This document shows, piece after piece, positions 13,001 to 40,451 of a DNA stretch of 64,000 nt. The stretch's first letter is position 1. The number at the start of each line of letters is the position of its first letter. The position numbers and the translations under genes are program-made. The notes beneath the pieces are model-generated. The model made no database searches. It was not told the origin of the DNA and saw nothing but the letters and a program-made list of their open reading frames with translations. The DNA comes from a virus (lineage: Duplodnaviria > Heunggongvirae > Uroviricota > Caudoviricetes): the IMG/VR virus record IMGVR_UViG_3300021388_000002, one strand, 5' to 3'.

Positions 13001-13216
13001 ATGGGTGACTGCGACCACCAGCTGCCGTGCTGGAACCCGGATATGCGCTGCATGGGCTGCAGCCACCGGGTCGCCACCCTGTTCGGTGATGAGCCCACCG
13101 AGACCCGCCAGCTGAACCCGGTGCTGTGGCCGTTCGAGGTCGCGGGACGGGCCGAGGCCATCGTCCGCGGCTGGCTGATCCGCCACCGCCGGCTGTACCG
13201 CAAGGGGGCATGGTGA
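13001..13216 (+). CDS. small Cys-rich hypothetical protein
   Basis: CAGGAGGTCCCG ATG; MGDCDHQLPCWNPDMRCMGCSH. Confidence 0.45.
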   Translation: MGDCDHQLPCWNPDMRCMGCSHRVATLFGDEPTETRQLNPVLWPFEVAGRAEAIVRGWLIRHRRLYRKGAW

Positions 13217-15048
13217 CCGCGCTGGCCAGCTGGCAGCAGCCGGGCTGGATGCCGCCCCCGCCCGTCGTGGAGGCCACCGTGTTCGGTGAGCTGACCGGCG
13301 ACGGGACCCGGATCGTCCTGATCACCGAGGGCAATGACTGGGGCATCGCGCGGGTCGCGAACAAGCTGCGCGCCCTGACCCCGGCGCTGGAATCCGCGCT
13401 GGTCGATGGCCGCAAGACCGGCGCCATGTACTGCCCGGCCACCTGGCCCGCCGTCGTGCAGCTCGGGTTCACCTTCAGCGCGGACCCCACGATGGACTGG
13501 GTGCCGGGCCCGCGGCTGGCGGACTGGATCGCGGACCAGGCCGCGCGGCGGGTGGAGACCCCGCCGGAGCTGAGCGTGGGCTACCCGCCGGGGCTGAGCC
13601 TGCGTCCCTACCAGGTGGACGGCGCCGAGGCCATCGCGGCGGCGGGCAAGTACCTGCTGCTGGACGAGATGGGCCTGGGCAAGACGATCACGGCCATCTG
13701 CGGGGTGGACTCCCGGCGTATCCGCGGGCACGAGGTCTTCCCCCTGGTCATCGTCGTGCCGTCCTGGGAGGTGGGCGACAACTGGGCCCGCGAGATCCGC
13801 ACGTGGGCGCCGTCCTGGGGCGAGCCGGTGATGTATAAGGGCCCAGGCCGCCAGCACCTGCTGCTGGGCGCCCAGGTGCTGATCACCACCTACGCCACCG
13901 CCCGGCTGGATGCCGCGGACATGCGCGGCCCGCTGGTCCTGCTGAGGCCGCACGCACTGATCGCTGATGAGGCGCACTGGCTGAAAAACAAAGACGCCCG
14001 CCAGACCCGGGCGGTGTGCCGGGTCGCGCACCAGGCTGGCACGGTCGTGTTCGCCACCGGCACGCCCGTCACCCGCAACACCGGGGACGTCTGGGCGGCG
14101 CTGTTCGGCATGGACCCGGCCAGCTGGGGCTCCCGGGAGCGGACCATCGCCCGGTTCTGCGAGCGGGTGGACGATGACTACGGCCCGGAGAAGATCCTGG
14201 GCCTCAAGCCGGCCGCGGCACAGGAGTTCTTCGCCTGCCTGGCCGGGCAGATGCGCCGGGTCGCCAAGGCCGACGTGCTGGACCAGCTGCCGCCGAAAAC
14301 CTACTCAGTGCTGCGCCCGGAGATCCCGCCGGAGTGGCGGCGCGCGTATGACACCATGGCGGCCGACATGCTGGCCCTGCTGCCGGACGGCGGCCAGCTG
14401 CCGGTCATGGACACGCTGTCCAGGCTGACCCGGCTGACCCAGCTCGCGTCATCAGCGGCCGACGTGACCGTCACCCAGGAGTGGGACGACCGCCTGGGCC
14501 TGATGGTCCCGAAGTACACCGTGCGGCTGAAGGCGCCGAGCTGGAAGGCCGAGTCGCTGATGGGCGTCATCGCCAAGCGCGAGCACGCCGGTGTGCCCAC
14601 GGTGGCGTTCATGGCCTCCCGCCAGCTCGCGCTGATCACCGGCCGGGAGTACTGCGAGAAGGCCGGGCTGCGGACCGGCTACATCATCGGGACCGGCGAC
14701 GGCATCACCACGAAGACCCGGATCAGGGCCAAGGACGACTTCCAGGCCGGCAAGCTGGACGTGATCATTTGCACCGCGGGCGCGGGCGGCCTGGGCCTGA
14801 CCCTGACCGCCTCGGACTGCTGCGTGATGCTGCAGCGGCCCTGGCCGTTCGATCAGGCCGTCCAGCCCGAGGACCGGGTGCACCGGATCGGCGCCGAGAT
14901 CCACGACCGGGTGGACATCATCGATATCGTCGCGCAGGGAACCGTGGACGAGCGTGCCCGGGTTCTCATGCGCGAGAAGGCAGGCCAGTTCAGCCAGTTC
15001 GTCCGCGACCCGCGGATACTCAGGGAGCTGCTGGGCGGCCTGGACTAG
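13210..15048 (+). CDS. SNF2/RAD54-family DEAD/H-box helicase
   Basis: LRPYQVDGAEAI, LLLDEMGLGKT (Walker A), LIADEAHWLKN (DEAH), C-terminal helicase domain motifs. Confidence 0.85.
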   Translation: MVTALASWQQPGWMPPPPVVEATVFGELTGDGTRIVLITEGNDWGIARVANKLRALTPALESALVDGRKTGAMYCPATWPAVVQLGFTFSADPTMDWVPGPRLADWIADQAARRVETPPELSVGYPPGLSLRPYQVDGAEAIAAAGKYLLLDEMGLGKTITAICGVDSRRIRGHEVFPLVIVVPSWEVGDNWAREIRTWAPSWGEPVMYKGPGRQHLLLGAQVLITTYATARLDAADMRGPLVLLRPHALIADEAHWLKNKDARQTRAVCRVAHQAGTVVFATGTPVTRNTGDVWAALFGMDPASWGSRERTIARFCERVDDDYGPEKILGLKPAAAQEFFACLAGQMRRVAKADVLDQLPPKTYSVLRPEIPPEWRRAYDTMAADMLALLPDGGQLPVMDTLSRLTRLTQLASSAADVTVTQEWDDRLGLMVPKYTVRLKAPSWKAESLMGVIAKREHAGVPTVAFMASRQLALITGREYCEKAGLRTGYIIGTGDGITTKTRIRAKDDFQAGKLDVIICTAGAGGLGLTLTASDCCVMLQRPWPFDQAVQPEDRVHRIGAEIHDRVDIIDIVAQGTVDERARVLMREKAGQFSQFVRDPRILRELLGGLD

Positions 15049-18007: not shown

Positions 18008-21000
18008 GTGACCGGCGCCCCCGCGGTCTACGCCGCTGCCGTCGATGCCTACCTGGCGGCCGGCTGGACGTGCGTCATCCCGGTGCCGCCGGAGGCCAAG
18101 TTCCCGCCGCCCGCCGGGTTCACCGGGGCCTCTGGCCGGGACACCGGCCCGGCCGACGTCGCCCGCTGGGTGATGGCCACGCCCGGGGCCTCGATCGCGC
18201 TGCGCCTGCCGGACGGCGTCATCGGCATCGACGTCGATGAGTACGCCAAGGGCGAGGCCGTCAAGCACGGCGCGGCCACGCTCGCGGCGAAGGTGGCGGA
18301 CTGGGGAGAGCTGCCGCCGACCTACAGCTCCACCGCGCGCGGCCCGGGCCAGCCCAGCCGGATCATGCTCTACCGGGTCCCGGCCGGGGTGCGGTTCGCC
18401 TCGGTGCTCGGCCCGGACGTGGAGATCATCCAGCGGCACCACCGCTACGCCGTGGTCGCGCCGTCGCCGCACCACGGGGCCGGGGCGCCGTATGCCTGGT
18501 ACGGCCCGGACGGGGTGGCGCTGGAGCACAAGATCCCGCGGCCGGAGGATCTGGCCGAGCTGCCGCCCGCCTGGGTGACCGGGCTGGCTGAGGGCGCCTC
18601 AGCGGCCGGGCCGGCCTCAGCGGGCCGGGAGGCGGCCGAGGCCCTGCTGGCCGTGATCGCGGACCAGGCCGGGGAGAGCGCCACCACATGCGTGTCCATG
18701 GACCGGGCCCGGCTGGCCGCCATCGGCGCGTGCACCGGGGCCGAGCGGGGCTCGCGCCACGACGCGATGACCGAGCACACCTACGAGGTCATCATGCTGG
18801 CCGCCGAGGGCCACCCGGGCTGCACCGCGGTGCTGGGCGAGCTGGCCGGGCTGTGGAATTCGCTCACGGCAGGGGAGGGCCGTGAGCACGAGTTCTGGGA
18901 GATGCTGACCACCGCGGCGGGCAAGGCGGTGACCAAGCTGGGCGGCCGGGCCGAGCCAGCCGGGTGGGACCCGTGCCTGATGATGAACGCGGTGCCGTAC
19001 GCCGCGCCGACGCCGGATGCCGGGGACGGCATGGCCCCGGACCCGGTGGAGCCGGCCCGGGTGTGGTCGCCGTTCGAGGTCATCGGCACCGAGGTGTTCG
19101 ACCCGGGCGCGGACATGGACGGGCTGCTGGCCCGCGCCGTGCTGCACCGGACCCGGCCGCTGATCCGCTACGCGGCCGACGCCGGCACCTGGATCGCGCG
19201 CGGGCCCATCCACTGGGAGGCCCGCAGCGGCGACCTGGGCAAGTGGGCGGTGGACCTGCTGAGCTGGCTGATGCGGCCCGGTGACCCGGCTGCGGACAAG
19301 GGCACCCCGGCCGAGACCGACGCCCGGCGGCGGGCCCGGTTCACCACCAACGCCAGCGCGAACGCGATCGCGGGCAAGATCAGTGCCCAGGTCGCGGCCG
19401 GGTACCACCCATCCACGGTGGAGCTGGGCGAGCTGGACGGCGAGCACGAGATCCTGTGGGCGGGCGGGCAGCCGTACGACATCCGGCTGAGCGCCGCGCA
19501 CCCGGAGCTGTCCCGGGTCCTGGACCTGGGCACGCCGCACCTGCACAGCGCCGGCGTGGTGCCCGAGACGCGCGAGACCCCGCTGTGGGACGCGTTCGTG
19601 GCCGCGGTCTGGCCCCAGCCGGGGCTGCGCGCCTGGGCCCTGCGAGTGCTGAGCGTGGCGTTCACCGGGTACTCGGACAAGGCGCTGCCCATCCTGCTGG
19701 GCGAGTCCAACACCGGCAAGACCCAGCTCCTGGTCCTGCTCATGTCCGTGCTCGGCAGCTACGCGCACGTGGCCGACGCCCGGCTGCTGGCGCCCGCCGA
19801 CCGCAGCCACGCCTCCATCGTGTACGCGCTGAAGGGCCGCCGGCTGAGCTTCATCGATGAGGCGCCCCGGACCGGGCAGCTGGCCACCGAGCGGCTGAAG
19901 CAGATCACGGGCGGCGCGGAGCTGACCGGCAACCAGATGGGCAAGAACCCGATCACGTTCATGCCCACGCACACGCTGATCCTGACCGCCAACCCCGAGC
20001 ACGAGCCGGTCCTGACCGATGCGGCCATCCGGTCCCGGGTGCGGCTGATCCCGTGCGACGGGAACCAGGCCGAGGTGGCGGCGGCGCGGGCCGCGATCGG
20101 CGCGCTGAGCGGGCCGGCCTGGCGGCGCGAGGCTCCCGGGGTGCTGGCAAAGATGCTGTCAGAAGCAGCCCAGTGGCTCGAACAGCCGCAGACCGCCAGC
20201 AACGCTGAGGCACCCGCCGAGGCAGCCATGGCAGCCGAGGAGGTCCGGGCCTCACAGGACCACGTGCTGGGCTGGCTCGCAGAGGAATGCGAGTCTTCCG
20301 AGCGGGGCACCAAGGGCCGCGAGCTTTACGTGGCGTTCACGGAGAGTTGCCGGCGGATGAACGTCCACCCGTCTGCGATCCCGAGTGAAACCCGGTGGGG
20401 CAGACGCCTCACCGAGCTTGGCTACCCTTCACGCCACACCAATCAGGGCAACATCCGGCAGCTCCGAATCCGGCCTCCGGTGCCGTTCACACCTGGCAGC
20501 TACAGCCCAGCCGCGCCGCACGGCGCTGCAGTCGTCCTGCAGCCCGGTCCAGGTGAAGGGTTGAGGCCTGAAAGTGAAGGGTTGGTGCATGGTTCTGAGG
20601 CCAGCTCTCAACCCTTCACTGAGGGGGAAACCGCAGGTCAAACTATTCACCCAACTATTCACGGTGAAGGGTTGAATAGTACACAGCCTTATATAACACA
20701 TGCGCGCACGCACACGCGCACGCACATGAACGGAGGTGCAAACGACCCTTCACCCCCTTCAACCGTTCACCTGACCCCCCCGCAGCCGGAAACCCCCCTG
20801 ATGCCGGAAGCCCCGGAGGCCGGCGCAGCGTCACCACCGGAGCGTGACGAGCCCGAGCCGGCGCAGCCCGCGAAGAAGGCCCGCAAGGCGCCCGCGAAGA
20901 AGCCGGAGCGGGTCCGGCCGGCTCCGGAGCTGGAGGGCCCGGTGCACCCGCTGCCGGTGATCGTGGCGCGGAACCCGGCGGGCGGTGCGCCCATCGTGGC

Positions 21001-23863
21001 GCCGTGCACGGTGGCCGAGGCAGCTCAGCTGGCCGGGGGCTACCTGGACGCGCTGTGCGTGGACGTGGAGCACTCGGGCTTCCCCATCGCCCACGCGGAT
21101 TACCGGCTGCGCCTGGTCCAGCTCGGCGGCGAGCACGTGGCCGCCGTGTTCGACCCGTCCGATGCGGCGCAGGCGGCTGCGATCGCGGACCTGCTCGGCC
21201 GGGCCCGCAAGCTGCACGCGCACTCGGCCGCGGCCGACCTGGTGCCGCTGGCCCATGCCGGGCTCGGTGACGCCGATGAGATGTGGGCGAAGATGGAGGA
21301 CTCGGTGCTGGTGACCAAGCTGGGCGATCCCAGCCTGGCCGGGTCGGACGAGAACGAGCTGAAGCGGCTGGCCGCCGGGCTGCTCGGGGACTACGCCGTC
21401 AGTCCCGCCGCGGAGAAGGCCAAGAACGAGCTGTTCAAAGACGGCCGGTGGCTGATCGAGACCAAGGCCATGACCCCGCGGGAGAAGTCCGGGTGGGCCA
21501 TGGTGAAGCCCGGGTGCGAGACGTTCGCCCGGTACGCCGGGTCCGACGTGCTGGACCTGGCCGCCGTGATCCGCACGCTGCCCCGGCCGGATGAGGCCAT
21601 CCTGGAGCGCGAGCGCACCTTCCAGGCCATGTGCGCCCGGGTCGCGCACACCGGGTTCCGGCTGCGCCCTGATCACATCCGGGCCAAGATCGCCGAGTTC
21701 GCCGGGCTCCGGGACGCCGCCCAGCGCCGGGTGCACGAGCTGTGCCCGGACATCATCAACCCGTCCAGCTCCCGGGAGGTCCCGGCCGCGCTGGCCGCCA
21801 TGGGCGTGCCGCTCGGGCTGACCAGGGAAGGCAACCCCTCGGCGTCCAAGGAAAACCTGGAGCTGCTGGCGAAGCAGAAGGATTACCCCCACGCGGAGCT
21901 GCTGGCCCAGATCCTTCAGTACCGGCACTGCGTGACCACGCTCGGGCTGCTGCTGGAGCCACTGAACGTGCTGTGCGAGCGGGGCGACGGACGGATGCGC
22001 CCGGTGGTCTACACGATCAACGCGGACACCGGGCGGACCAGCTGCGTGCGGCCAAACGGTCAGCAGTTCTCCCGGCAGGGCGGCATCCGGGCCTGCGTCG
22101 GCGCCGATCCCGGCATGATCGGCATCAGCGCCGACTTCTCCGGCGTGGAGATCCGGGTCGGGGCCGCGCTGAGCGGCGACATGGACCTGCTCGCCGCCGA
22201 GCTGTCCACCCGGTGCCAGGCGTGCGGGCAGGACCCGTGCGACATGACCGCCTGCGGGAAGAACCAGAAGGGGCTGCACTGGATGGCGGCCCGGATGGCA
22301 TTCGGCCCGGACGCGACCAAGGAAGGCCGCTACAACTCCAAGCGGATCATCTTCTGCGTGCCCGAGGACGGCACCGAGATCCTGACCCGGCGCGGCTGGC
22401 TGGCTCACGATCAGGTCCGGGCAGGCGATGAGACGCTGGGCCGGAATCCCGGAACCGGCTTGCTGGAGTGGACCCCAGTTACGGGTGTCCAGCACTTTGG
22501 TGAGGCTGAGCTGGTGCGGATCGCGAATAAGGATTCCGGCTGGGAGGCCGTGGTCACGCCTGGGCATCGCTGGGCGACTAGCAAGCGCCGTGATGGGGGC
22601 AGCCGCGGCCGGTATTTCGCTGAGGGGATGACTGAGACTCAGGATCTCAGCTGCGAGCACTCGCTGATCCTGGGTGCGCTCGCGGCAACGCCGGAGCAGC
22701 TGCCCATCACCCCGGCTGAGGCTGCGCTGATCGCCTGGGCCTATACGGACGGGCACGTGTTCCAGTCCCCGCTGACCGGGCGCACAAGCCAGGGCCGGGA
22801 TGGACGGCGCCGTAAGCTGCAGGTCAGTATCGCCCAGGCCAAGCCCGCTGGCGTTCACGCGCTGGAGAAGGTCCTGGCGGACTGCGGCGCTGATTTCGCA
22901 CGAGACGACAAGCCGCTGGATGGCAAGGACAAGCGCACGATGCCATCCTCGGTCTGGCGGCTCCGGACTGAATACGCCCGGGAACTGTGGGGCCGGGCTG
23001 GCCTGCTTGCCGTTGCGGGCAAGAACCTGCCCGGATTCGCGCTGGAGCAGTTTGTCCTGCGGCTGGGCACGGAACAGCGCGGCGCGTTCTTTCAGGCCTG
23101 CATGGATGCCGAAGGTTACCGGGATAGCAGGACAGGAGCCCCGCGCATCTCCCAGAATGCGGGGCCAGTCCTGGACGCTATCAAGCTGGCTGCAACCCTG
23201 GAGGGCTACTACGTCCGGGAACACGTGACGCGGTTTGCGCTCGGGACTGCCCCGCATAGCGTGCTCGTGCTGTCGCGCCCGCGGGTGGGCGGGACCAGGC
23301 TGCGTAAGGAACCGGCTGGGTCAGCGCCGGTCTGGTGCGTGACAACAGGGCACGGCACCTGGCTGATGCGCCAGAACGGCCGGATCATGCTTACCGGCAA
23401 CTCCAAGATGTTCGGCGGCGGCCCGAAGTCCGGTGCCGCCCAGGTCGGCCTGCCGCTGGCGGCGGGCATCGCGGTGCACAACGCGTTCGAGCAGATTGCC
23501 CCGGGCTTCGCCGAGTGGGACCGGCAGATGCGGGCCTACCTGGAGGCAGGCAACCGCGGGTTCACTGCCTACTCGGGCCGGACCATCTGGCTGCCTCGCG
23601 GCCGGAGCCACGCGGCCGGGAACTACGCCATCCAGGGCACCGCCCGGGAGATCCTGGTGGACGGCGTGCTGAAGTGGGGTCAGACCCGCTGGGGCGCCTA
23701 TCCGCTGCTGCCGATCCACGATGAAGTTCTCACGTTCGTGCCCGTGGCCGAGGCCGCCGAGGCGCTGGAGACGCTGAAGGCCTGCATGGCCAACGAGCTG
23801 TACGGCGTGCCGATCGTGGCCGCCGCCGACGAGCCGTTCGAGTTCTGGCCGGACAGCTCATGA
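18008..23863 (+). CDS. giant replication fusion protein: primase-polymerase + P4/D5-type SF3 helicase + 3'-5' exonuclease + family-A DNA polymerase (intein-interrupted)
   Basis: IGIDVDEY prim-pol; LLGESNTGKTQ Walker A; CVDVEHSGF exo I; ADFSGVEIRV motif A; PIHDEVL motif C; continuous 1951-codon frame. Confidence 0.75.
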   Translation: MTGAPAVYAAAVDAYLAAGWTCVIPVPPEAKFPPPAGFTGASGRDTGPADVARWVMATPGASIALRLPDGVIGIDVDEYAKGEAVKHGAATLAAKVADWGELPPTYSSTARGPGQPSRIMLYRVPAGVRFASVLGPDVEIIQRHHRYAVVAPSPHHGAGAPYAWYGPDGVALEHKIPRPEDLAELPPAWVTGLAEGASAAGPASAGREAAEALLAVIADQAGESATTCVSMDRARLAAIGACTGAERGSRHDAMTEHTYEVIMLAAEGHPGCTAVLGELAGLWNSLTAGEGREHEFWEMLTTAAGKAVTKLGGRAEPAGWDPCLMMNAVPYAAPTPDAGDGMAPDPVEPARVWSPFEVIGTEVFDPGADMDGLLARAVLHRTRPLIRYAADAGTWIARGPIHWEARSGDLGKWAVDLLSWLMRPGDPAADKGTPAETDARRRARFTTNASANAIAGKISAQVAAGYHPSTVELGELDGEHEILWAGGQPYDIRLSAAHPELSRVLDLGTPHLHSAGVVPETRETPLWDAFVAAVWPQPGLRAWALRVLSVAFTGYSDKALPILLGESNTGKTQLLVLLMSVLGSYAHVADARLLAPADRSHASIVYALKGRRLSFIDEAPRTGQLATERLKQITGGAELTGNQMGKNPITFMPTHTLILTANPEHEPVLTDAAIRSRVRLIPCDGNQAEVAAARAAIGALSGPAWRREAPGVLAKMLSEAAQWLEQPQTASNAEAPAEAAMAAEEVRASQDHVLGWLAEECESSERGTKGRELYVAFTESCRRMNVHPSAIPSETRWGRRLTELGYPSRHTNQGNIRQLRIRPPVPFTPGSYSPAAPHGAAVVLQPGPGEGLRPESEGLVHGSEASSQPFTEGETAGQTIHPTIHGEGLNSTQPYITHARTHTRTHMNGGANDPSPPSTVHLTPPQPETPLMPEAPEAGAASPPERDEPEPAQPAKKARKAPAKKPERVRPAPELEGPVHPLPVIVARNPAGGAPIVAPCTVAEAAQLAGGYLDALCVDVEHSGFPIAHADYRLRLVQLGGEHVAAVFDPSDAAQAAAIADLLGRARKLHAHSAAADLVPLAHAGLGDADEMWAKMEDSVLVTKLGDPSLAGSDENELKRLAAGLLGDYAVSPAAEKAKNELFKDGRWLIETKAMTPREKSGWAMVKPGCETFARYAGSDVLDLAAVIRTLPRPDEAILERERTFQAMCARVAHTGFRLRPDHIRAKIAEFAGLRDAAQRRVHELCPDIINPSSSREVPAALAAMGVPLGLTREGNPSASKENLELLAKQKDYPHAELLAQILQYRHCVTTLGLLLEPLNVLCERGDGRMRPVVYTINADTGRTSCVRPNGQQFSRQGGIRACVGADPGMIGISADFSGVEIRVGAALSGDMDLLAAELSTRCQACGQDPCDMTACGKNQKGLHWMAARMAFGPDATKEGRYNSKRIIFCVPEDGTEILTRRGWLAHDQVRAGDETLGRNPGTGLLEWTPVTGVQHFGEAELVRIANKDSGWEAVVTPGHRWATSKRRDGGSRGRYFAEGMTETQDLSCEHSLILGALAATPEQLPITPAEAALIAWAYTDGHVFQSPLTGRTSQGRDGRRRKLQVSIAQAKPAGVHALEKVLADCGADFARDDKPLDGKDKRTMPSSVWRLRTEYARELWGRAGLLAVAGKNLPGFALEQFVLRLGTEQRGAFFQACMDAEGYRDSRTGAPRISQNAGPVLDAIKLAATLEGYYVREHVTRFALGTAPHSVLVLSRPRVGGTRLRKEPAGSAPVWCVTTGHGTWLMRQNGRIMLTGNSKMFGGGPKSGAAQVGLPLAAGIAVHNAFEQIAPGFAEWDRQMRAYLEAGNRGFTAYSGRTIWLPRGRSHAAGNYAIQGTAREILVDGVLKWGQTRWGAYPLLPIHDEVLTFVPVAEAAEALETLKACMANELYGVPIVAAADEPFEFWPDSS
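20540..20780. promoter_or_regulatory. candidate replication origin-like island inside the replication gene linker
   Basis: local GC drop; GTGAAGGGTTG x3 direct, CAACCCTTCAC inverted, CAACTATTCAC x2; 32-nt alternating Pu/Py tract 20697-20728; TTATATAAC. Confidence 0.35.
22355..23401 (+). mobile_element. intein (349 aa) inside polymerase domain, with homing endonuclease-like middle
   Basis: CVPEDGTEILTRRG start after ...KRIIF; ends ...IMLTGN followed by Ser; in frame. Confidence 0.65.
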
Positions 23864-24512: not shown

Positions 24513-25192
24513 CGATCACACCCGTCCCGCGCCTGGAGCCTGCCGGGGAAGACGGCAGCCTGGCCCGCACGGCGGCGCTTGCTGATGCGGTCCAGGCCCT
24601 GGCCCGGTATGCGCTGCAGTTCGGCCGGATCGACCGGACCGCCTGCCTGCATCCTGATGGCGGCATGCGCGAGTCAGATACTGACCACACGGTGATGCTG
24701 AGGTGGATCGCCCCGGCGCTCGCCGACCGGTGCTGCCCGGACCTGCCCAGCGGCGATGTTGCCGCGTTCGCGCTGGTTCACGATGCGGTTGAGGTATTCG
24801 CTGGCGACACGCAGCCCCTGCGGATCGATGCAGACGGGCTGGCCGCCAAGAAGGCCCGCGAAGCTGCCGCGGCCGGCCGGTGGCGCGCCGAGTTCGGCGG
24901 CAGCCTGCCGTGGCTCCCGGCGATGATCGGCCGGTACGAGGCACAGCACGAGCCCGCGGCCCGGTTCGTCCGCGCCCTGGACAAGATCATGCCCAAGCTG
25001 GTGCATATCCTGAACGGCTGCGCGGACCTGATCGCATTCGGCGTCACCATGGACGAGCTGGACGGCTTGTTCTGCCGCCAGCGTGCCGACATCGCCACGT
25101 ACGCGAGTGAGTTCCGTGCCCTGATGGACCTGTACGACGAGACCACCGTGCGGGTTCTTGAGGCGCTGCGAGCCCGGGAGGGCGCCGCATGA
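24509..25192 (+). CDS. HD-domain phosphohydrolase
   Basis: ESDTDHTVML ... LVHDAVEVFAGD (H..HD..D). Confidence 0.65.
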   Translation: MTITPVPRLEPAGEDGSLARTAALADAVQALARYALQFGRIDRTACLHPDGGMRESDTDHTVMLRWIAPALADRCCPDLPSGDVAAFALVHDAVEVFAGDTQPLRIDADGLAAKKAREAAAAGRWRAEFGGSLPWLPAMIGRYEAQHEPAARFVRALDKIMPKLVHILNGCADLIAFGVTMDELDGLFCRQRADIATYASEFRALMDLYDETTVRVLEALRAREGAA

Positions 25193-25644
25193 TCACACCC
25201 GTCCCGCGCTGGACCCGGGCCGGCGAGGGCGACCCGCCGTCCGCCTGGACGCGTGCCCGGTTCCGGGAGCGCCGCATCCCGCCCGCCCGCCGCCAGCCGC
25301 GCTCCCAGGTGCCCCGGCCGGGGCTGTCCCCGATCGAGCAGAAGTTCTGGGACGCGCACCTGCGGCTGGCGCTGCCCGTGCTGTCCGGGCTGGTGGCCCA
25401 GCACCCGGCAGGCCGCTACCGGCTGGACTTCGCGCTGCCTGCGCACCGGATCGGCATTGAGCTGGACGGCCACGCCACCCATTCCAGTACCGCGGCGATC
25501 GCCCGGGACCGGCAGCGCCAGCGCGCCCTGGAAGCCCGCGGCTGGCACGTCATCCGGTTCGGCGGCGCCGAGGTGCACCGCGATGCGGACGGCTGCGTCC
25601 GCCAGGCCGCCGCGCTGATCCAGCGCCGGATCACCCGTCACTGA
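25189..25644 (+). CDS. DUF559 / Vsr-like endonuclease domain protein
   Basis: RLDFALP..IGIELDGHATHS...RDRQRQRALEARGWHVIRF. Confidence 0.65.
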   Translation: MITPVPRWTRAGEGDPPSAWTRARFRERRIPPARRQPRSQVPRPGLSPIEQKFWDAHLRLALPVLSGLVAQHPAGRYRLDFALPAHRIGIELDGHATHSSTAAIARDRQRQRALEARGWHVIRFGGAEVHRDADGCVRQAAALIQRRITRH

Positions 25645-39041: not shown

Positions 39042-40451
39042 CTAGCGCGGTGCCGTGGCCGCCATCATCGCGACCGTGGGCAGGCTGGACCCGTGCGCCA
39101 GGGGCGCTGCCGGGAGGGTGACCGGCTCGGCCGTGGCCGGTGCCAGGCTGTCCAGCTCGGCCGGCACGGTGCCCGGCTTGAACTGGGCCAGCACGTCCTC
39201 GCCCGTGACCGCGCCGCTGGCGACGGCAGCGCTCATCCGGGCGGCGTGCACCACGACCAGCGGGTGCTTGCCGATCAGGACCGGCGGGCTGGCGTTCTCA
39301 GCCATCGGGTCGCAGCTGCTGCCCGGGGTGGCTGGGCAGTCCGGGCAGGGCGCTGCCAGCAGCGTGCCGGTCAGCTCTGCCCGCTCGGCCGCGTCCTGCT
39401 CCTGCTCCGTCCCGGTGGTGAACTGGCCGTGCCGCGGGCGCTGGCGGATGCCGTTCCGCTTGCGCGGGCGCTGCGGGATGGGCTCCGCGGCCGGCAGCGC
39501 TGGCGGTGCCGCGTCCGTCTCGCCCGGCAGCCGCAGGCCACCCGTGGACGCCTGGTCATCGGCGCGCAGCCGCACCGTAGCCGAGGTCACCCAGATGGGC
39601 GGCGCGTCCGGCAGCGGCTCGCCGGTCTCCGGGTCGGTGTCCGGCTGGTGCCACCCGATCGGCTCGATGGTGTACGCGAACGAGTCCGGCAGCGGCCCGC
39701 ACTTGACCTTCTCCGCGATCACCGTGGCCGACCGGCTGCCGTCCGTGCTCTCCAGGTCTGGCTCGATCCCGAACACGAAGTCCGAGGAAGCGAACAGCCG
39801 GGAGCCGGGCAGGCGCTGCGGCTCGTTGCCGCGCCCGCCGTTCGGGTGCGCGATCGCGATTACCAGGCAGTCCAGCTGGGCCGACAGCCACTTCATCCCG
39901 AGCATGAACCGGTTGGCGCTGGTGTCGTTAGCCAGCGACAGGCCGCCGAAGTCCGCCGCGCTGTCCAGGATGACCAGCTCCAGGTCCGGCAGCTGGCCCA
40001 TCTCGGTCGCCGCCCGGCGCAGCGCCCGCGTCGGCTCCATCTGCGGGCTGACCGGCACCGCGAACGCCTCCGTCATGAACTTCAGCCGCACGTCGGTGTA
40101 GGGCGGCTGGGCCGCCAGCCACGCATCGGCCGCCGCCTGGCCGTCCCGGCGGGCGATCTCGGCCGCCCGCGCCATCCGGTCATGCTGCTCGCGGATCAGC
40201 CGGGCCTGCTTGCGGACTCCCGCGTCGTACAGGCCCTCACCGAGGCAGTACGCGACCATGCCCCGGATGGTCGCCCGGCCGAGGAACGGGGTGCCGTTGG
40301 CGACCGCCAGGCCCAGTTCCTGGCCGATCACCAGGGACTTGCCGTAGTACGACGGCCCGTAGACGAACCCCACGCCCACCCGGGGGAACAGCCCCTCGAC
40401 CAGGAAGTCCGGCGGGGTGATGTCCAGGTCGTCAGCGTTGATCAGAGGCAT
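39042..40451 (-). CDS. AAA_25-type RecA-like ATPase (RepA/DnaB-like fold)
   Basis: GFVYGPSYYGKS Walker A; VILDSAADF Walker B-like. Confidence 0.65.
   Translation of the reverse strand: MPLINADDLDITPPDFLVEGLFPRVGVGFVYGPSYYGKSLVIGQELGLAVANGTPFLGRATIRGMVAYCLGEGLYDAGVRKQARLIREQHDRMARAAEIARRDGQAAADAWLAAQPPYTDVRLKFMTEAFAVPVSPQMEPTRALRRAATEMGQLPDLELVILDSAADFGGLSLANDTSANRFMLGMKWLSAQLDCLVIAIAHPNGGRGNEPQRLPGSRLFASSDFVFGIEPDLESTDGSRSATVIAEKVKCGPLPDSFAYTIEPIGWHQPDTDPETGEPLPDAPPIWVTSATVRLRADDQASTGGLRLPGETDAAPPALPAAEPIPQRPRKRNGIRQRPRHGQFTTGTEQEQDAAERAELTGTLLAAPCPDCPATPGSSCDPMAENASPPVLIGKHPLVVVHAARMSAAVASGAVTGEDVLAQFKPGTVPAELDSLAPATAEPVTLPAAPLAHGSSLPTVAMMAATAPR

What the first reader, a model, noticed from the sequence alone, without database searches (positions are those of the whole stretch)
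18008..23863. Single 1951-aa fusion of primase-polymerase, SF3 helicase, 3'-5' exonuclease and family-A polymerase, with an intein in the polymerase
No stop separates the Prim-Pol (IGIDVDEY), P4/D5-type helicase (GESNTGKTQ), exonuclease (CVDVEHSGF) and PolA (ADFSGVEIRV, PIHDEVL) modules. A 349-aa intein starts CVPEDGTEIL after ...KRIIF, ends ...LTGN before Ser, and splits the polymerase between motifs A and C. A complete replisome-in-one-polypeptide is unusual. It may be processed, or the two halves may be expressed from an internal start (the first in-frame ATG after the island is around 20800).
Basis: partly seen in the sequence, partly recalled or inferred. Interest (0 to 1): 0.6.

Follow-up and report, generated by a model that had tools for sequence, protein, structure and literature searches.

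The report
One-gene phage replicase containing its origin
A single 1951-codon phage gene really does join a primase, helicase, proofreading nuclease and DNA polymerase (the polymerase split by a self-splicing intein), it belongs to a large uncharacterised family from Actinobacteria phages, and the DNA for its flexible linker looks like the element's own replication origin.

Summary
ORF 18008-23863 (+) is uninterrupted. It encodes a Prim-Pol primase, an SF3 (P4/D5-type) helicase with a C-terminal winged-helix domain, a 3'-5' exonuclease and a family-A polymerase, with catalytic residues invariant across 120 homologues.

The 349-aa insert (22355-23401) is a genuine intein with a HINT fold and a LAGLIDADG endonuclease. 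It sits inside polymerase motif B, and 118 of 120 homologues lack it at exactly these boundaries.

The fusion is not an error or a one-off. More than 100 protein clusters and about 70 fetched loci from Actinobacteria prophages and viral contigs share it. No cultured phage or plasmid record does.

The new result concerns the linker (about 20424-20770). It carries 7-9 element-specific iterons, an AT-rich dip and a 33-nt alternating purine-pyrimidine tract, and this layout is conserved family-wide. Across 46 loci the gene frame has 2 stops in this segment, against 147 and 241 in the other frames, although GC3 bias collapses. Two residues in the winged-helix wing (H810, N815) co-vary with two iteron bases.

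I read this as an initiator-helicase-primase-polymerase that reads through its own origin. Origin activity, splicing and the size of the mature protein are untested.

The parts
18008..23863 (+). Complete replicase ORF. The precursor is 1951 aa. The predicted spliced product is 1602 aa.
   Evidence: Identical protein P0001 is on a 164,629-bp JGI contig.
18047..18568 (+). Archaeo-eukaryotic Prim-Pol primase domain (aa 14-187). D75xD77, E139 and the H144-H145 dyad are conserved.
   Evidence: Pfam PF09250, E 5.8e-20. Motif conservation.
19565..20107 (+). SF3 (P4/D5-type) helicase core (about aa 520-700). Walker A is G565..G570-K571-T572, Walker B is D617-E618, sensor is N662, arginine residues are R677 and R679.
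   Evidence: Pfam DUF5906 and PHROG 1156. TIGR01613. These residues are invariant in 120 homologues.
20216..20476 (+). C-terminal winged-helix domain (about aa 737-823), the putative origin-binding domain. The wing hairpin carries H810 and N815.
   Evidence: AF2 model pLDDT 89.9. Foldseek finds RFX1 DBD, RFX5 and the phage P4 origin-binding domain 1ka8. Residue-iteron covariation.
20424..20770 (.). Putative replication origin inside the ORF. GTGAAGGGTTG iterons lie at 20553, 20574 and 20664 (+). Minus-strand copies lie at 20424, 20609 and 20745, with a 1-mismatch copy at 20760. Degenerate copies are at 20641 and 20653. A conserved box GCAGGTCAAAC is at 20633.
   Evidence: All six exact GTGAAGGGT copies in the 64-kb window lie here. 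The same layout occurs in 46 or more relatives.
20640..20728 (.). Candidate DNA-unwinding element. It comprises an AT-rich stretch (GC 30-50% against a 70% background) followed by a 33-nt perfectly alternating purine-pyrimidine, near-palindromic tract (20696-20728).
20477..20962 (+). Low-complexity interdomain linker (aa 824-985), translated from the origin DNA plus a Pro/Ala/Lys-rich tail. It contains in-frame M907 and M932, and a GGAGG-N5-GTG (V979) at 20932-20944.
21005..21577 (+). 3'-5' proofreading exonuclease domain (about aa 1000-1190). Exo I is D1019/E1021, Exo II is D1077, Exo III is Y1176/D1180.
   Evidence: sub-threshold Pfam hit; invariant residues.
21605..22354 (+). Family-A polymerase, N-extein part. 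It holds the TGRxS motif, motif A (D1376, E1381, R1383), a clade-specific Cys4 insert (aa 1403-1416), and the first half of motif B (R1441, K1445, F1449).
22355..23401 (+). Intein (349 aa). HINT splicing domain with C1, T68-x-x-H71, W73, C328, T347 and N349. LAGLIDADG homing endonuclease with D132 and E253.
23402..23863 (+). Family-A polymerase, C-extein part. It starts with the Ser+1 nucleophile (S1799) and holds the second half of motif B (F1802-G1803), the QGTAR motif, motif C (H1904-D1905-E1906) and the TGA stop.

Best explanation
This is the replication gene of a large temperate-phage-like element of an actinobacterium.

Shown:
- One ORF encodes Prim-Pol primase, SF3 helicase, a winged-helix domain, a linker, a 3'-5' exonuclease and a family-A polymerase, with all catalytic motifs intact.
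- The polymerase O-helix (motif B) is interrupted by a mobile HINT/LAGLIDADG intein.
- The linker DNA carries a conserved array of element-specific iterons in both orientations around an AT-rich, alternating purine-pyrimidine core.
- In 45 of 46 relatives analysed this array is kept free of stop codons in the gene frame only.

Inferred mechanism:
1. The 1951-aa precursor is translated through the origin.
2. The intein splices out and restores motif B, giving a 1602-aa enzyme.
3. The helicase module hexamerises.
4. Its winged-helix wing (H810, N815) reads the GTGAAGGGTTG iterons that lie in the very next 100 codons of its own gene.
5. The AT-rich / alternating purine-pyrimidine core melts and helicase rings load on either side, as proposed for SaPI Rep and phage P4 alpha.
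6. The Prim-Pol domain primes.
7. The covalently tethered proofreading PolA extends.

The origin probably began as an intergenic site just 3' of a primase-helicase gene, as it still is in the unfused relative L019. It was then engulfed when that gene fused with the downstream polymerase gene.
For: Architecture and residues.

Family-wide fusion: more than 120 full-length homologues, mostly 1550-1620 aa; 17 actinobacterial genomes; 205 IMG/VR relatives. In 52 of 53 non-redundant loci the helicase and exonuclease are in one frame with no stop between them.

Prophage context: portal, protease, capsid and tape-measure genes lie next to the Nocardioides sp. 503 copy. The window has an endolysin and a conserved upstream SNF2 helicase.

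Intein:
- Exact presence/absence.
- An empty site in P0006/L002 identical in DNA over 54 nt.
- Homologous inteins in other PolA genes and in SLT-domain proteins.
- AF2 pLDDT 87. Foldseek hits to the TliVMA intein (E 6e-16), PI-SceI, PI-PfuI and I-DmoI.

Origin:
- Iteron clustering and the GC dip.
- The same arrangement with different iteron sequences in relatives.
- Stops in the origin span by frame are 2 / 147 / 241. Codon-position GC is 0.64/0.60/0.60 there, against 0.72/0.54/0.92 in the helicase.
- L019 has the same origin starting 6 nt after its stop codon.

Winged helix: fold. Covariation: His810 goes with iteron nt4 = A in 26/30 loci, Lys815 with nt5 = C in 23/33, and Asn with nt5 = A or G in 11/21. 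At least three switches occur between close relatives.

Precedent: SaPI Rep, an SF3 helicase whose C-terminal winged helix binds 6-12 iterons immediately 3' of rep around an AT-rich centre (PMC9371898).
Against: - No experiment exists. Origin firing, iteron binding, splicing and the size of the mature protein are all inferred.
- Foldseek support for the winged helix is weak in E-value (0.012-0.13) although coherent.
- The covariation is not corrected for phylogeny and has exceptions.
- The canonical AEP motif II histidine is absent at its usual place, so primase activity is plausible but not assured.
- The intein matches no Pfam, NCBIfam or PDB sequence profile. It has Gly instead of the usual penultimate His, so splicing efficiency is unknown.
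- The set of relatives was gathered by homology to the fused protein, which enriches for fused genes.
- The linker peptide is unconserved, so post-translational cleavage into two proteins, as in PfPREX, cannot be excluded.
Confidence: 0.72

Rival explanations
1. The gene is fused but the proteins are not. The continuous ORF yields two working proteins, primase-helicase and exonuclease-polymerase. This could happen by proteolysis in the disordered linker, by internal initiation downstream of the origin, or by frameshifting to a nearby out-of-frame stop.
For: The linker peptide is unconserved and has no coding-type GC3 bias. In-frame M907 and M932 and a GGAGG-N5-GTG (V979) precede the exonuclease domain. 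The other two frames are full of stops, and C7 and C6 runs precede a +1-frame TGA at 20799. The analogous PfPREX is described as a polyprotein (PMC10201439). In cultured phages the two modules are separate neighbouring genes.
Against: If the second half were translated independently, nothing would select against stops in the linker. Yet 45 of 46 loci keep the frame open through a low-GC segment where the other frames accumulate 147 and 241 stops. No internal Met is conserved across the family. Proteolysis after read-through remains compatible with the data.
Confidence: 0.3
2. The repeat cluster in the linker is not a replication origin. It is another cis-acting site, such as an operator array for autoregulation, a partition or packaging site, or simply a repetitive peptide linker.
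For: No functional data exist. Iteron-like arrays also occur in partition sites and operators. No sigma-70-like promoter was found there.
Against: The position immediately after the winged-helix domain of an SF3 initiator-helicase, the opposed iteron sets, the AT-rich centre and the numbers (7-11 copies) match the SaPI ori description (PMC9371898). The iteron DNA sequence changes between elements while the arrangement is fixed, and the same 10-mer appears in all three reading frames and on both strands. That rules out selection on a peptide repeat. Wing residues co-vary with iteron bases.
Confidence: 0.12
3. The intein is degenerate and does not splice. The polymerase half would then be dead in this element, which would rely on host polymerases.
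For: No match to intein sequence profiles. The penultimate residue is Gly rather than His. Some relatives are frameshifted pseudogenes (L020, L023), so decay does occur in this family.
Against: All splicing residues are present: C1, T68, H71, W73, C328, T347, N349 and S+1. Both LAGLIDADG acidic residues are also present and are conserved among seven homologues. The model is confident. Penultimate Gly is documented in a mycobacteriophage intein used in splicing assays (PMC5050341). Extein catalytic residues are intact. GC3 of the whole ORF is 0.89.
Confidence: 0.1
4. Artefact: an assembly or sequencing error removed a stop codon or frameshift between two genes.
For: The sequence is metagenome-derived. 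High G+C makes long accidental ORFs common, for example the 808-aa antisense ORF at 20831-23257.
Against: The same uninterrupted architecture is found in more than 100 independent clusters, including isolate genomes.
Confidence: 0.02

Closest known systems
SaPI (Staphylococcus aureus pathogenicity island) Pri-Rep / ori module, including the fused PriRep5 (PMC9371898)
   Same: Primase plus a self-loading SF3 helicase whose C-terminal winged helix recognises 6-12 short iterons. The iterons flank an AT-rich centre in opposite orientations and lie directly after the helicase coding sequence. Specificity is element-specific.
   Different: In SaPIs the ori is intergenic and no polymerase is attached. 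Here the ori is translated as an interdomain linker and a proofreading PolA is fused downstream. The iterons are 10-11 bp rather than 5-6 bp. The host phylum differs.
Phage P4 alpha protein (primase-helicase with C-terminal origin-binding domain, PDB 1ka8)
   Same: D5/P4-type SF3 helicase (TIGR01613 region matched) followed by a winged-helix origin-binding domain. The model of aa 700-835 hits 1ka8 (prob 0.94).
   Different: P4 uses a DnaG-type primase (PMC4889955). Here the primase is AEP Prim-Pol and a polymerase is fused. TIGR01613 scores below its curated cut-off (98.3 against 108.7).
Actinoplanes phage phiAsp2 Pas55 and Lactococcus phage 1706 gp55, the two helicase-primase-polymerase fusions listed by Kazlauskas et al. 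2016 (PMC4889955)
   Same: Primase, SF3 helicase and replicative polymerase in one polypeptide of a phage. Pas55 is from an actinophage, ends in a PolA and is preceded by an SF2 helicase gene.
   Different: Pas55 has a DUF3854/Toprim-type N-terminus and no Prim-Pol. It resembles this protein only over about 120-aa stretches of PolA (31-34% identity). gp55 carries PolB. Neither is reported with an embedded origin or an intein.
Plasmodium PfPREX (apicoplast primase-helicase-exonuclease-PolA polyprotein; PDB 5dku)
   Same: The same order of activities on one precursor. The spliced exo-pol region of this ORF matches the Prex polymerase at E 3e-7.
   Different: PREX uses a TOPRIM primase and helicase (T7 gp4-like) and is eukaryotic and organellar. 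It has no origin in the gene and no intein.
Origins located inside initiator genes (phage lambda ori in gene O, SPP1 oriL in gene 38; from my own knowledge)
   Same: Iterons plus an AT-rich region embedded in the coding sequence of the protein that binds them.
   Different: Those initiators are small loader-recruiting proteins. Here the origin separates the helicase-primase and polymerase halves of a complete replicase, and the segment has lost coding-type base composition.
Class 3 (WCT) inteins of actinobacteria and their phages (PMC5222942, PMC5050341, PMC7664689)
   Same: Trp at B:12, Cys at F:4, Thr at G:5 and Ser+1 are all present (W73, C328, T347, S1799). The host range is phage and actinobacterial.
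   Different: Class 3 inteins are defined as lacking a position-1 nucleophile. This one and its homologues keep Cys1. The penultimate residue is Gly.

Membership tests
AEP Prim-Pol (Pfam PF09250) | Profile match above the curated cut-off over the whole domain | tested here: met
   72.8 bits against 22.8, profile positions 3-157 of 158.
AEP Prim-Pol (Pfam PF09250) | Catalytic motifs I (DxD), II (His) and III (acidic) | tested here: inconclusive
   D75xD77 is invariant and E139 nearly so. D137 is present in 100/120. No His at the expected motif II position (aa 120 is M/L/Y/R). An invariant H144-H145 dyad follows.
SF3 helicase, P4/D5 family | Walker A, Walker B, motif C Asn and arginine finger | tested here: met
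   G565, G570-K571-T572, D617-E618, N662, R677 and R679 are invariant in 120 sequences. DUF5906 scores 33.8 bits against 27.6.
SF3 helicase, P4/D5 family | NCBIfam TIGR01613 (phage/plasmid primase, P4 family C-terminal) above its cut-off | tested here: not met
   98.3 bits against a cut-off of 108.7. This is a clear relative but below the curated threshold.
SF3 helicase, P4/D5 family | C-terminal winged-helix origin-binding domain | tested here: inconclusive
   The AF2 model is a winged helix (pLDDT 89.9). Best PDB matches are RFX1 DBD (E 0.012), RFX5 and the P4 OBD 1ka8 (E 0.13, prob 0.94). None reaches E <= 0.001.
Family-A DNA polymerase with 3'-5' exonuclease | PF00476 above cut-off, with motif A Asp, motif B Arg/Lys/aromatic and motif C HDE | tested here: met
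   81.6 bits against 34.3. D1376, R1441, K1445, F1449, F1802 and H1904-D1905-E1906 are conserved. The spliced sequence aligns to Klenow across motifs A-C, E 2.6e-14.
Family-A DNA polymerase with 3'-5' exonuclease | Exo I (DxE), Exo II (D) and Exo III (YxxxD) | tested here: met
   D1019, E1021, D1077, Y1176 and D1180 are invariant. The Pfam exo1 profile itself is below threshold (15.1 against 23.6).
Intein (HINT) with LAGLIDADG homing endonuclease | In-frame insertion, absent from orthologues with exact boundaries, at a conserved catalytic site | tested here: met
   Present in 2 of 120 at this site. The empty site in L002 is identical over 54 nt. The site is the motif B O-helix.
Intein (HINT) with LAGLIDADG homing endonuclease | Splice-junction residues: Cys/Ser1, block B TxxH, C-terminal Asn, and +1 Cys/Ser/Thr | tested here: met
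   C1450, T68-P-G-H71, N1798 and S1799. Penultimate His is replaced by Gly.
Intein (HINT) with LAGLIDADG homing endonuclease | HINT fold plus a two-motif LAGLIDADG domain | tested here: met
   AF2 pLDDT 87.3. Foldseek hits 7qsu (E 6e-16), PI-SceI (6e-13), PI-PfuI and I-DmoI. D132-G133 and E253-G254 are invariant.
Intein (HINT) with LAGLIDADG homing endonuclease | Match to curated intein sequence profiles | tested here: not met
   No Pfam, NCBIfam or PDB-sequence hit for the 349 aa. One homologue (P0124) carries PF14528.
Intein (HINT) with LAGLIDADG homing endonuclease | Protein splicing and homing activity | not testable with these tools
   Needs expression and a splicing assay.
Class 3 inteins | WCT triplet (Trp B:12, Cys F:4, Thr G:5), usually with Ser/Thr +1 | tested here: met
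   W73, C328, T347 and S1799. These are conserved in 6-7 of 7 homologues. Definitions from PMC5222942 and PMC5050341.
Class 3 inteins | No nucleophile at intein position 1 | tested here: not met
   Position 1 is Cys here and in P0121, P0123 and P0124. I therefore do not file it as class 3.
Iteron-type replication origin bound by its own initiator-helicase (SaPI/P4 type) | Cluster of short repeats in both orientations around an AT-rich segment, next to the initiator gene | tested here: met
   in the window. in about 60 relatives.
Iteron-type replication origin bound by its own initiator-helicase (SaPI/P4 type) | Specific binding of the initiator to the repeats | tested here: inconclusive
   Only indirect evidence: wing residues 810 and 815 co-vary with iteron bases 4 and 5.
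Iteron-type replication origin bound by its own initiator-helicase (SaPI/P4 type) | Replication initiates there | not testable with these tools
   Needs origin mapping or a replication assay.

The most novel reading that the evidence does not exclude
The gene is a self-contained one-gene replicon. A single ORF would supply origin recognition, helicase, primase, proofreading polymerase and, in its own linker codons, the origin. Transcription and translation of the replicase would necessarily pass through the site where it acts, giving a cis-acting, expression-coupled origin. A simple two-residue / two-base recognition code in the winged-helix wing (H810/N815 against iteron bases 4 and 5) would define mutually orthogonal replication specificities among co-resident actinobacterial prophages. 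If so, the family would be the most compact dsDNA replication cassette known in bacteria and a ready source of orthogonal replication systems for high-G+C hosts.
Probability: 0.35. Interest if true: 0.8.

Novelty: new variant of a known kind. Interest (0 to 1): 0.62.

Why it matters
Fusions of primase, helicase and polymerase in one polypeptide have been singled out as the strongest sign of how tightly these activities are coupled. Only two phage examples are listed (PMC4889955). This work adds a third type, Prim-Pol + SF3 + exonuclease + PolA, that turns out to be common in Actinobacteria prophages yet absent from cultured phage and plasmid records.

It also shows an unusual genetic compromise. 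A replication-origin-like DNA element is kept translatable for the length of the family's history, which gives a clean natural example of overlapping DNA-level and protein-level constraints.

The family offers testable hypotheses:
- an initiator-iteron recognition code;
- whether covalent tethering of polymerase to helicase matters;
- how splicing of a motif-B intein gates replication.

It also offers practical parts: compact, mutually orthogonal replicons for Streptomyces-like hosts, and a new intein with a mixed class 1 / class 3 signature. Several copies sit in cultured strains (Nocardioides sp. 503, Micromonospora zingiberis, Labedaea rhizosphaerae, Kribbella sp.), so experiments are feasible.

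Tried and rejected
- Megablast of the gene against 50,697 phage records gave no match.
- tblastn against phages and plasmids found no record with the fused gene. The best case has separate primase/helicase and PolI genes at about 27% identity.
- An exact-sequence look-up of the window protein's contig found nothing on record.
- Pfam, NCBIfam and PDB-sequence searches of the intein gave no hit. The question was settled instead by an intein-only homologue search, structure prediction and a fold search.
- phiAsp2 Pas55 was considered as the known family. I rejected it as a homologue because its N-terminus is DUF3854 and only short PolA stretches align.
- The shorter 'split' relatives (P0021/L023, L020) were considered as evidence for a natural exo|pol split. 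I rejected this because they are +1 frameshifts at two different places, one of them inside the exonuclease domain.
- I looked for mini-circular one-gene replicons among 13 whole short contigs. None has terminal overlaps.
- I looked for a similar iteron cluster after the primase/helicase gene of Gordonia phage Fury. None was found.
- Rfam on the linker gave only a spurious lncRNA hit at E 0.088.
- The promoter scan of the linker found none. The 'terminator-like' hits are the palindromic alternating purine-pyrimidine tract.
- PHROG and Pfam scans of 20 neighbouring ORFs found no capsid, portal or terminase inside the window itself. The phage assignment therefore rests on the endolysin, on synteny and on relatives.
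Full report
**1. The observation**

The window has 70% G+C. ORF 18008-23863 on the + strand starts with GTG and overlaps the stop of the preceding small ORF (GTGA). It runs 1951 codons to a TGA with no in-frame stop. GC3 is 0.89, like the other genes called in the window.

- Pfam finds Prim-Pol at aa 14-187 (72.8 bits), the P4/D5 helicase core DUF5906 at aa 563-666, and DNA_pol_A in two stretches. DNA_pol_A_exo1 is sub-threshold.
- PHROG 1156 'DNA primase' covers aa 5-810 and PHROG 17 'DNA polymerase' covers the C-terminal half.
- NCBIfam adds the P4-family primase C-terminal region, slightly below its cut-off.
- In a MAFFT alignment of the 120 best homologues, every catalytic residue I checked is invariant or nearly so. 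AEP: D75xD77 and E139. Helicase: Walker A GKT, Walker B DE, N662, R677, R679. Exonuclease: D1019, E1021, D1077, Y1176, D1180. Polymerase: D1376, R1441, K1445, F1449, H1904-D1905-E1906.
- The one irregularity is the canonical AEP motif II histidine. It is not at its usual place, and an invariant His-His dyad (144-145) follows.

**2. The fusion is real and is a family**

A search of 5.8 billion proteins returned more than 120 full-length relatives at 46-66% identity. Most are 1550-1620 aa with the same Prim-Pol + DUF5906 + PolA architecture. Named sources include Nocardioides, Micromonospora, Kribbella, Prauserella, Jatrophihabitans and a Mycobacterium MAG.

- Scans of public DNA found 17 species-representative genomes, all but one attributed to Actinomycetota.
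- IMG/VR holds 205 relatives and metagenomes gave 44 loci.
- Among 53 non-redundant loci where a helicase Walker B motif is followed within 0.8-2.2 kb by an Exo I motif in any frame, 52 have both in one frame with no stop between them.
- In Nocardioides sp. 503 the gene sits in a prophage. HTH and WhiB regulators and an SNF2 helicase lie upstream. Portal, ClpP-type protease, major capsid and tape-measure genes lie downstream.
- The window and its closest relative (P0006, a 139.6-kb viral contig) share this order: SNF2 helicase, replicase, DUF1643, then a peptidoglycan-binding lysin. Both carry a DUF559 endonuclease gene, but it lies upstream of the replicase in P0006 and downstream in the window.
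- The window's clade comes from 140-210-kb contigs. Most other members come from contigs of roughly 20-55 kb, many near 40 kb.
- No cultured phage (50,697 records) or plasmid (72,556 records) has the fused gene. The nearest phages (Arthrobacter JuneStar, Streptomyces Rowa) carry primase/helicase and PolI as separate neighbours at about 27% identity.

**3. The intein**

Residues 1450-1798 are absent from 118 of 120 homologues, with exact boundaries. The junctions are KRIIF|C...TGN|SKMFGGG. When the insert is removed, the sequence aligns with Klenow through motif B (query RYNSKRIIF-SKMFGGG against Klenow RRSAKAINF-GLIYGMS). The intein therefore sits between the equivalents of F762 and G763 in the O-helix, and an unspliced polymerase cannot be active.

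- The intein-free relative P0006/L002 has the same DNA over 54 nt around the site, so it is an empty homing site. The whole clade P0001-P0015 has Ser at +1, where the other 101 sequences have Gly.
- Sequence profiles (Pfam, NCBIfam, PDB sequences) do not recognise the insert.
- An intein-only search found six homologues. Two are in other PolA genes, and P0121 is at the same motif-B site. Two are in SLT (lytic transglycosylase) domain proteins, which shows mobility between unrelated exteins. One of these carries Pfam LAGLIDADG_3.
- An AlphaFold model built on these sequences is confident (pLDDT 87.3). It matches endonuclease-containing inteins: TliVMA E 6e-16, PI-SceI 6e-13, PI-PfuI, and also I-DmoI.
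- Splicing residues C1, T68, H71 and N349 and the LAGLIDADG acidic residues D132 and E253 are present and conserved.
- The intein also has the class 3 'WCT' signature (W73 = B:12, C328 = F:4, T347 = G:5) and Ser+1, as defined in PMC5222942 and PMC5050341. Yet it keeps Cys1, which class 3 inteins lack by definition. Penultimate Gly is documented for mycobacteriophage inteins (PMC5050341).
- The family is an intein hotspot. Other members carry inteins after TGR(T/M), after TGRxS, after PNGQQF and before IQGTAR.

**4. The linker is a replication-origin-like element**

Between the helicase module and the exonuclease lie about 160 unconserved, low-complexity codons.

In the window:
- All six exact copies of GTGAAGGGT in the 64-kb window lie in 20424-20753, three on each strand. 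A one-mismatch copy lies at 20760 and two degenerate copies at 20641 and 20653.
- GC falls to 48% in 100-nt windows, and to 30-35% locally, against 70%.
- A 33-nt perfectly alternating purine-pyrimidine, near-palindromic tract occupies 20696-20728.

In relatives:
- The same layout recurs with different iteron sequences, for example ATGGAGGGT in L002, GTGACGGGTT in Nocardioides sp. 503, GTGCAGGG in L007 and GTGACCAGTT in L016. There are typically 8-11 copies within 200-330 bp, and almost every copy in a 25-kb locus lies there.
- The orientation pattern is conserved, roughly +++-++--. A conserved CAGGTCAA box is shared by the three loci whose sequence I inspected (window, L002, L003), and most loci carry a (CA/CG)n tract.
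- In 32 of 46 loci the longest alternating purine-pyrimidine run of the whole locus lies in this segment.
- The same 10-mer appears in different reading frames and on both strands, so selection is on the DNA and not on a peptide repeat.

Translation is still required. Over the iteron spans of 46 loci there are 2 stops in the gene frame, both in one frameshifted locus, against 147 and 241 in the other two frames. Meanwhile codon-position GC flattens to 0.64/0.60/0.60, from 0.72/0.54/0.92 in the helicase domain.

A more distant, unfused primase-helicase (L019, Pseudonocardia MAG, 39% identity) has the same kind of origin, with GTGGCGGATC iterons flanking an AT-rich core that contains stops. It starts 6 nt after its stop codon. 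This suggests the origin was intergenic before the fusion.

**5. Who reads the iterons**

- Residues 700-835 fold, with pLDDT 89.9, into a winged helix. Its beta-hairpin wing is aa 808-821.
- The best PDB matches are the RFX1 and RFX5 DNA-binding domains, the origin-binding domain of phage P4 alpha (1ka8, prob 0.94) and the C-terminal domain of ASFV PrimPol. E-values are weak (0.012 and above).
- Across 55 loci, residue 810 is His when iteron base 4 is A (26/30), and Lys or Arg when it is G (11/17).
- Residue 815 is Lys when base 5 is C (23/33), and Asn when it is A or G (11/21).
- Switches occur between close relatives: L025 against L011/L024, L029 against L012/L013, and in the window clade. 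Numbering is two too low.
- This test is not phylogenetically corrected, but it points to the wing as the specificity element.
- The arrangement matches what is described for SaPI Rep proteins: SF3 self-loading helicases whose C-terminal winged helix binds 6-12 iterons immediately downstream of rep, half on each side of an AT-rich region and in opposite orientation (PMC9371898).

**6. Mechanism proposed**

Shown: the architecture, the intact catalytic motifs, the intein, the conserved iteron / AT-rich element, stop avoidance and the covariation.

Inferred: translation of the precursor through the origin; intein splicing that restores motif B; hexamerisation; iteron recognition by the wing; melting of the AT-rich / alternating purine-pyrimidine core; helicase self-loading; priming by Prim-Pol; and extension by the tethered proofreading PolA.

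Whether the mature enzyme stays in one piece is open. Stop avoidance says ribosomes must read through. Later cleavage in the disordered linker, as in the PfPREX polyprotein (PMC10201439), or additional internal starts (M907, M932, GGAGG-N5-GTG at V979) cannot be excluded.

**7. Comparison with what is known, and novelty**

- Kazlauskas et al. 2016 list only two helicase-primase-polymerase fusions in dsDNA viruses (PMC4889955): phage 1706 gp55 (AEP+SF3+PolB) and phiAsp2 Pas55 (DnaG-type+SF3+PolA).
- Pas55 is not homologous in its N-terminal half and is barely alignable in PolA.
- The 2023 reclassification of PolA mentions AEP-PolA fusions only in a different cluster and in other phyla. It lists 'no known partners' for its D29-like cluster of Actinomycetia phage and prophage PolAs (PMC10201439).
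- I found no paper describing this family or its embedded origin. The library does not cover subscription journals.
- Origins inside initiator genes are classical (lambda O, SPP1 gene 38; my own knowledge), and iteron/winged-helix SF3 initiators are known.
- I therefore rate this a new variant of known kinds rather than something categorically new.

**8. Verdict**

The finding is more interesting than stated, because the fusion is a widespread, conserved design and because its linker appears to be the origin the enzyme acts on. Interest is 0.62.

Noticed in passing
window 22355-23401; P0121, P0123, P0124: The intein combines the class 3 signature (Trp B:12, Cys F:4, Thr G:5, Ser+1) with a retained Cys1 and a penultimate Gly. 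Its homologues in PolA and SLT-domain proteins share this mixed pattern.
   Followed up: partly
relatives P0002, P0008, P0015, P0017, P0019, P0032, P0050, P0076, P0082, P0100: The PolA domain of this family carries inteins at four or more further sites: after TGR(T/M), after TGRxS (these have an HNH_3 domain), after PNGQQF, and before IQGTAR. P0002 has two inteins.
   Followed up: partly
window 22214-22255 (aa 1403-1416): A Cys4 insert (C-x2-C-x4-C-x2-5-C-G) lies between polymerase motifs A and B. It is conserved in the window's clade (P0001-P0014) and absent from the rest of the family. It may be a zinc knuckle in the fingers.
   Followed up: partly
window 20696-20728: This 33-nt perfectly alternating purine-pyrimidine tract is also a near-palindrome able to form a 13-bp hairpin. 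Similar (CA/CG)n tracts of 15-47 nt lie in the linker of most relatives. It could form Z-DNA or a cruciform.
   Followed up: partly
window 20775-20801: Runs of C7 and C6 are followed by a TGA in the +1 frame (20799-20801). A +1 slip in the linker would end translation just after the origin and give a stand-alone primase-helicase. The close relative L002 has similar C runs.
   Followed up: no
L023:6563-6567; L020:13329-13339: Two relatives carry +1 frameshifts that split the gene: an IMG/VR 210-kb contig and Actinophytocola sp. The positions differ (about aa 1192, and about aa 1090 inside the exonuclease). These are decaying copies or sequencing errors.
   Followed up: yes
window 25189-25644; L001:9510-10004: A DUF559/MTES_1575 (Vsr-like) endonuclease gene lies downstream of the replicase in the window, but immediately upstream of it in the closest relative. 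This suggests a small mobile endonuclease gene.
   Followed up: no
window 13126-15048; L001:4361-6199; L003:5261-7045; L004:40778-42481: An SF2 helicase gene lies a few genes upstream of the fused replicase in every context examined. It is SNF2-type in the window, L001 and L003. In phiAsp2, which has an unrelated fusion, it is a ResIII/DEAD-type helicase.
   Followed up: partly
window 39163-39255 (-): ARAGORN calls a 93-nt tRNA-Gly(GCC) inside the AAA_25 / zinc-finger ORF 39042-40451. It is probably a false positive.
   Followed up: no
L122, L141 (also L118, L144): Some fused relatives match the query only from about aa 340 onward. L122 and L141 have a weak Pfam Prim-Pol hit at the N-terminus. 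L118 and L144 have no Pfam hit there, so their N-terminal domain is unidentified.
   Followed up: partly
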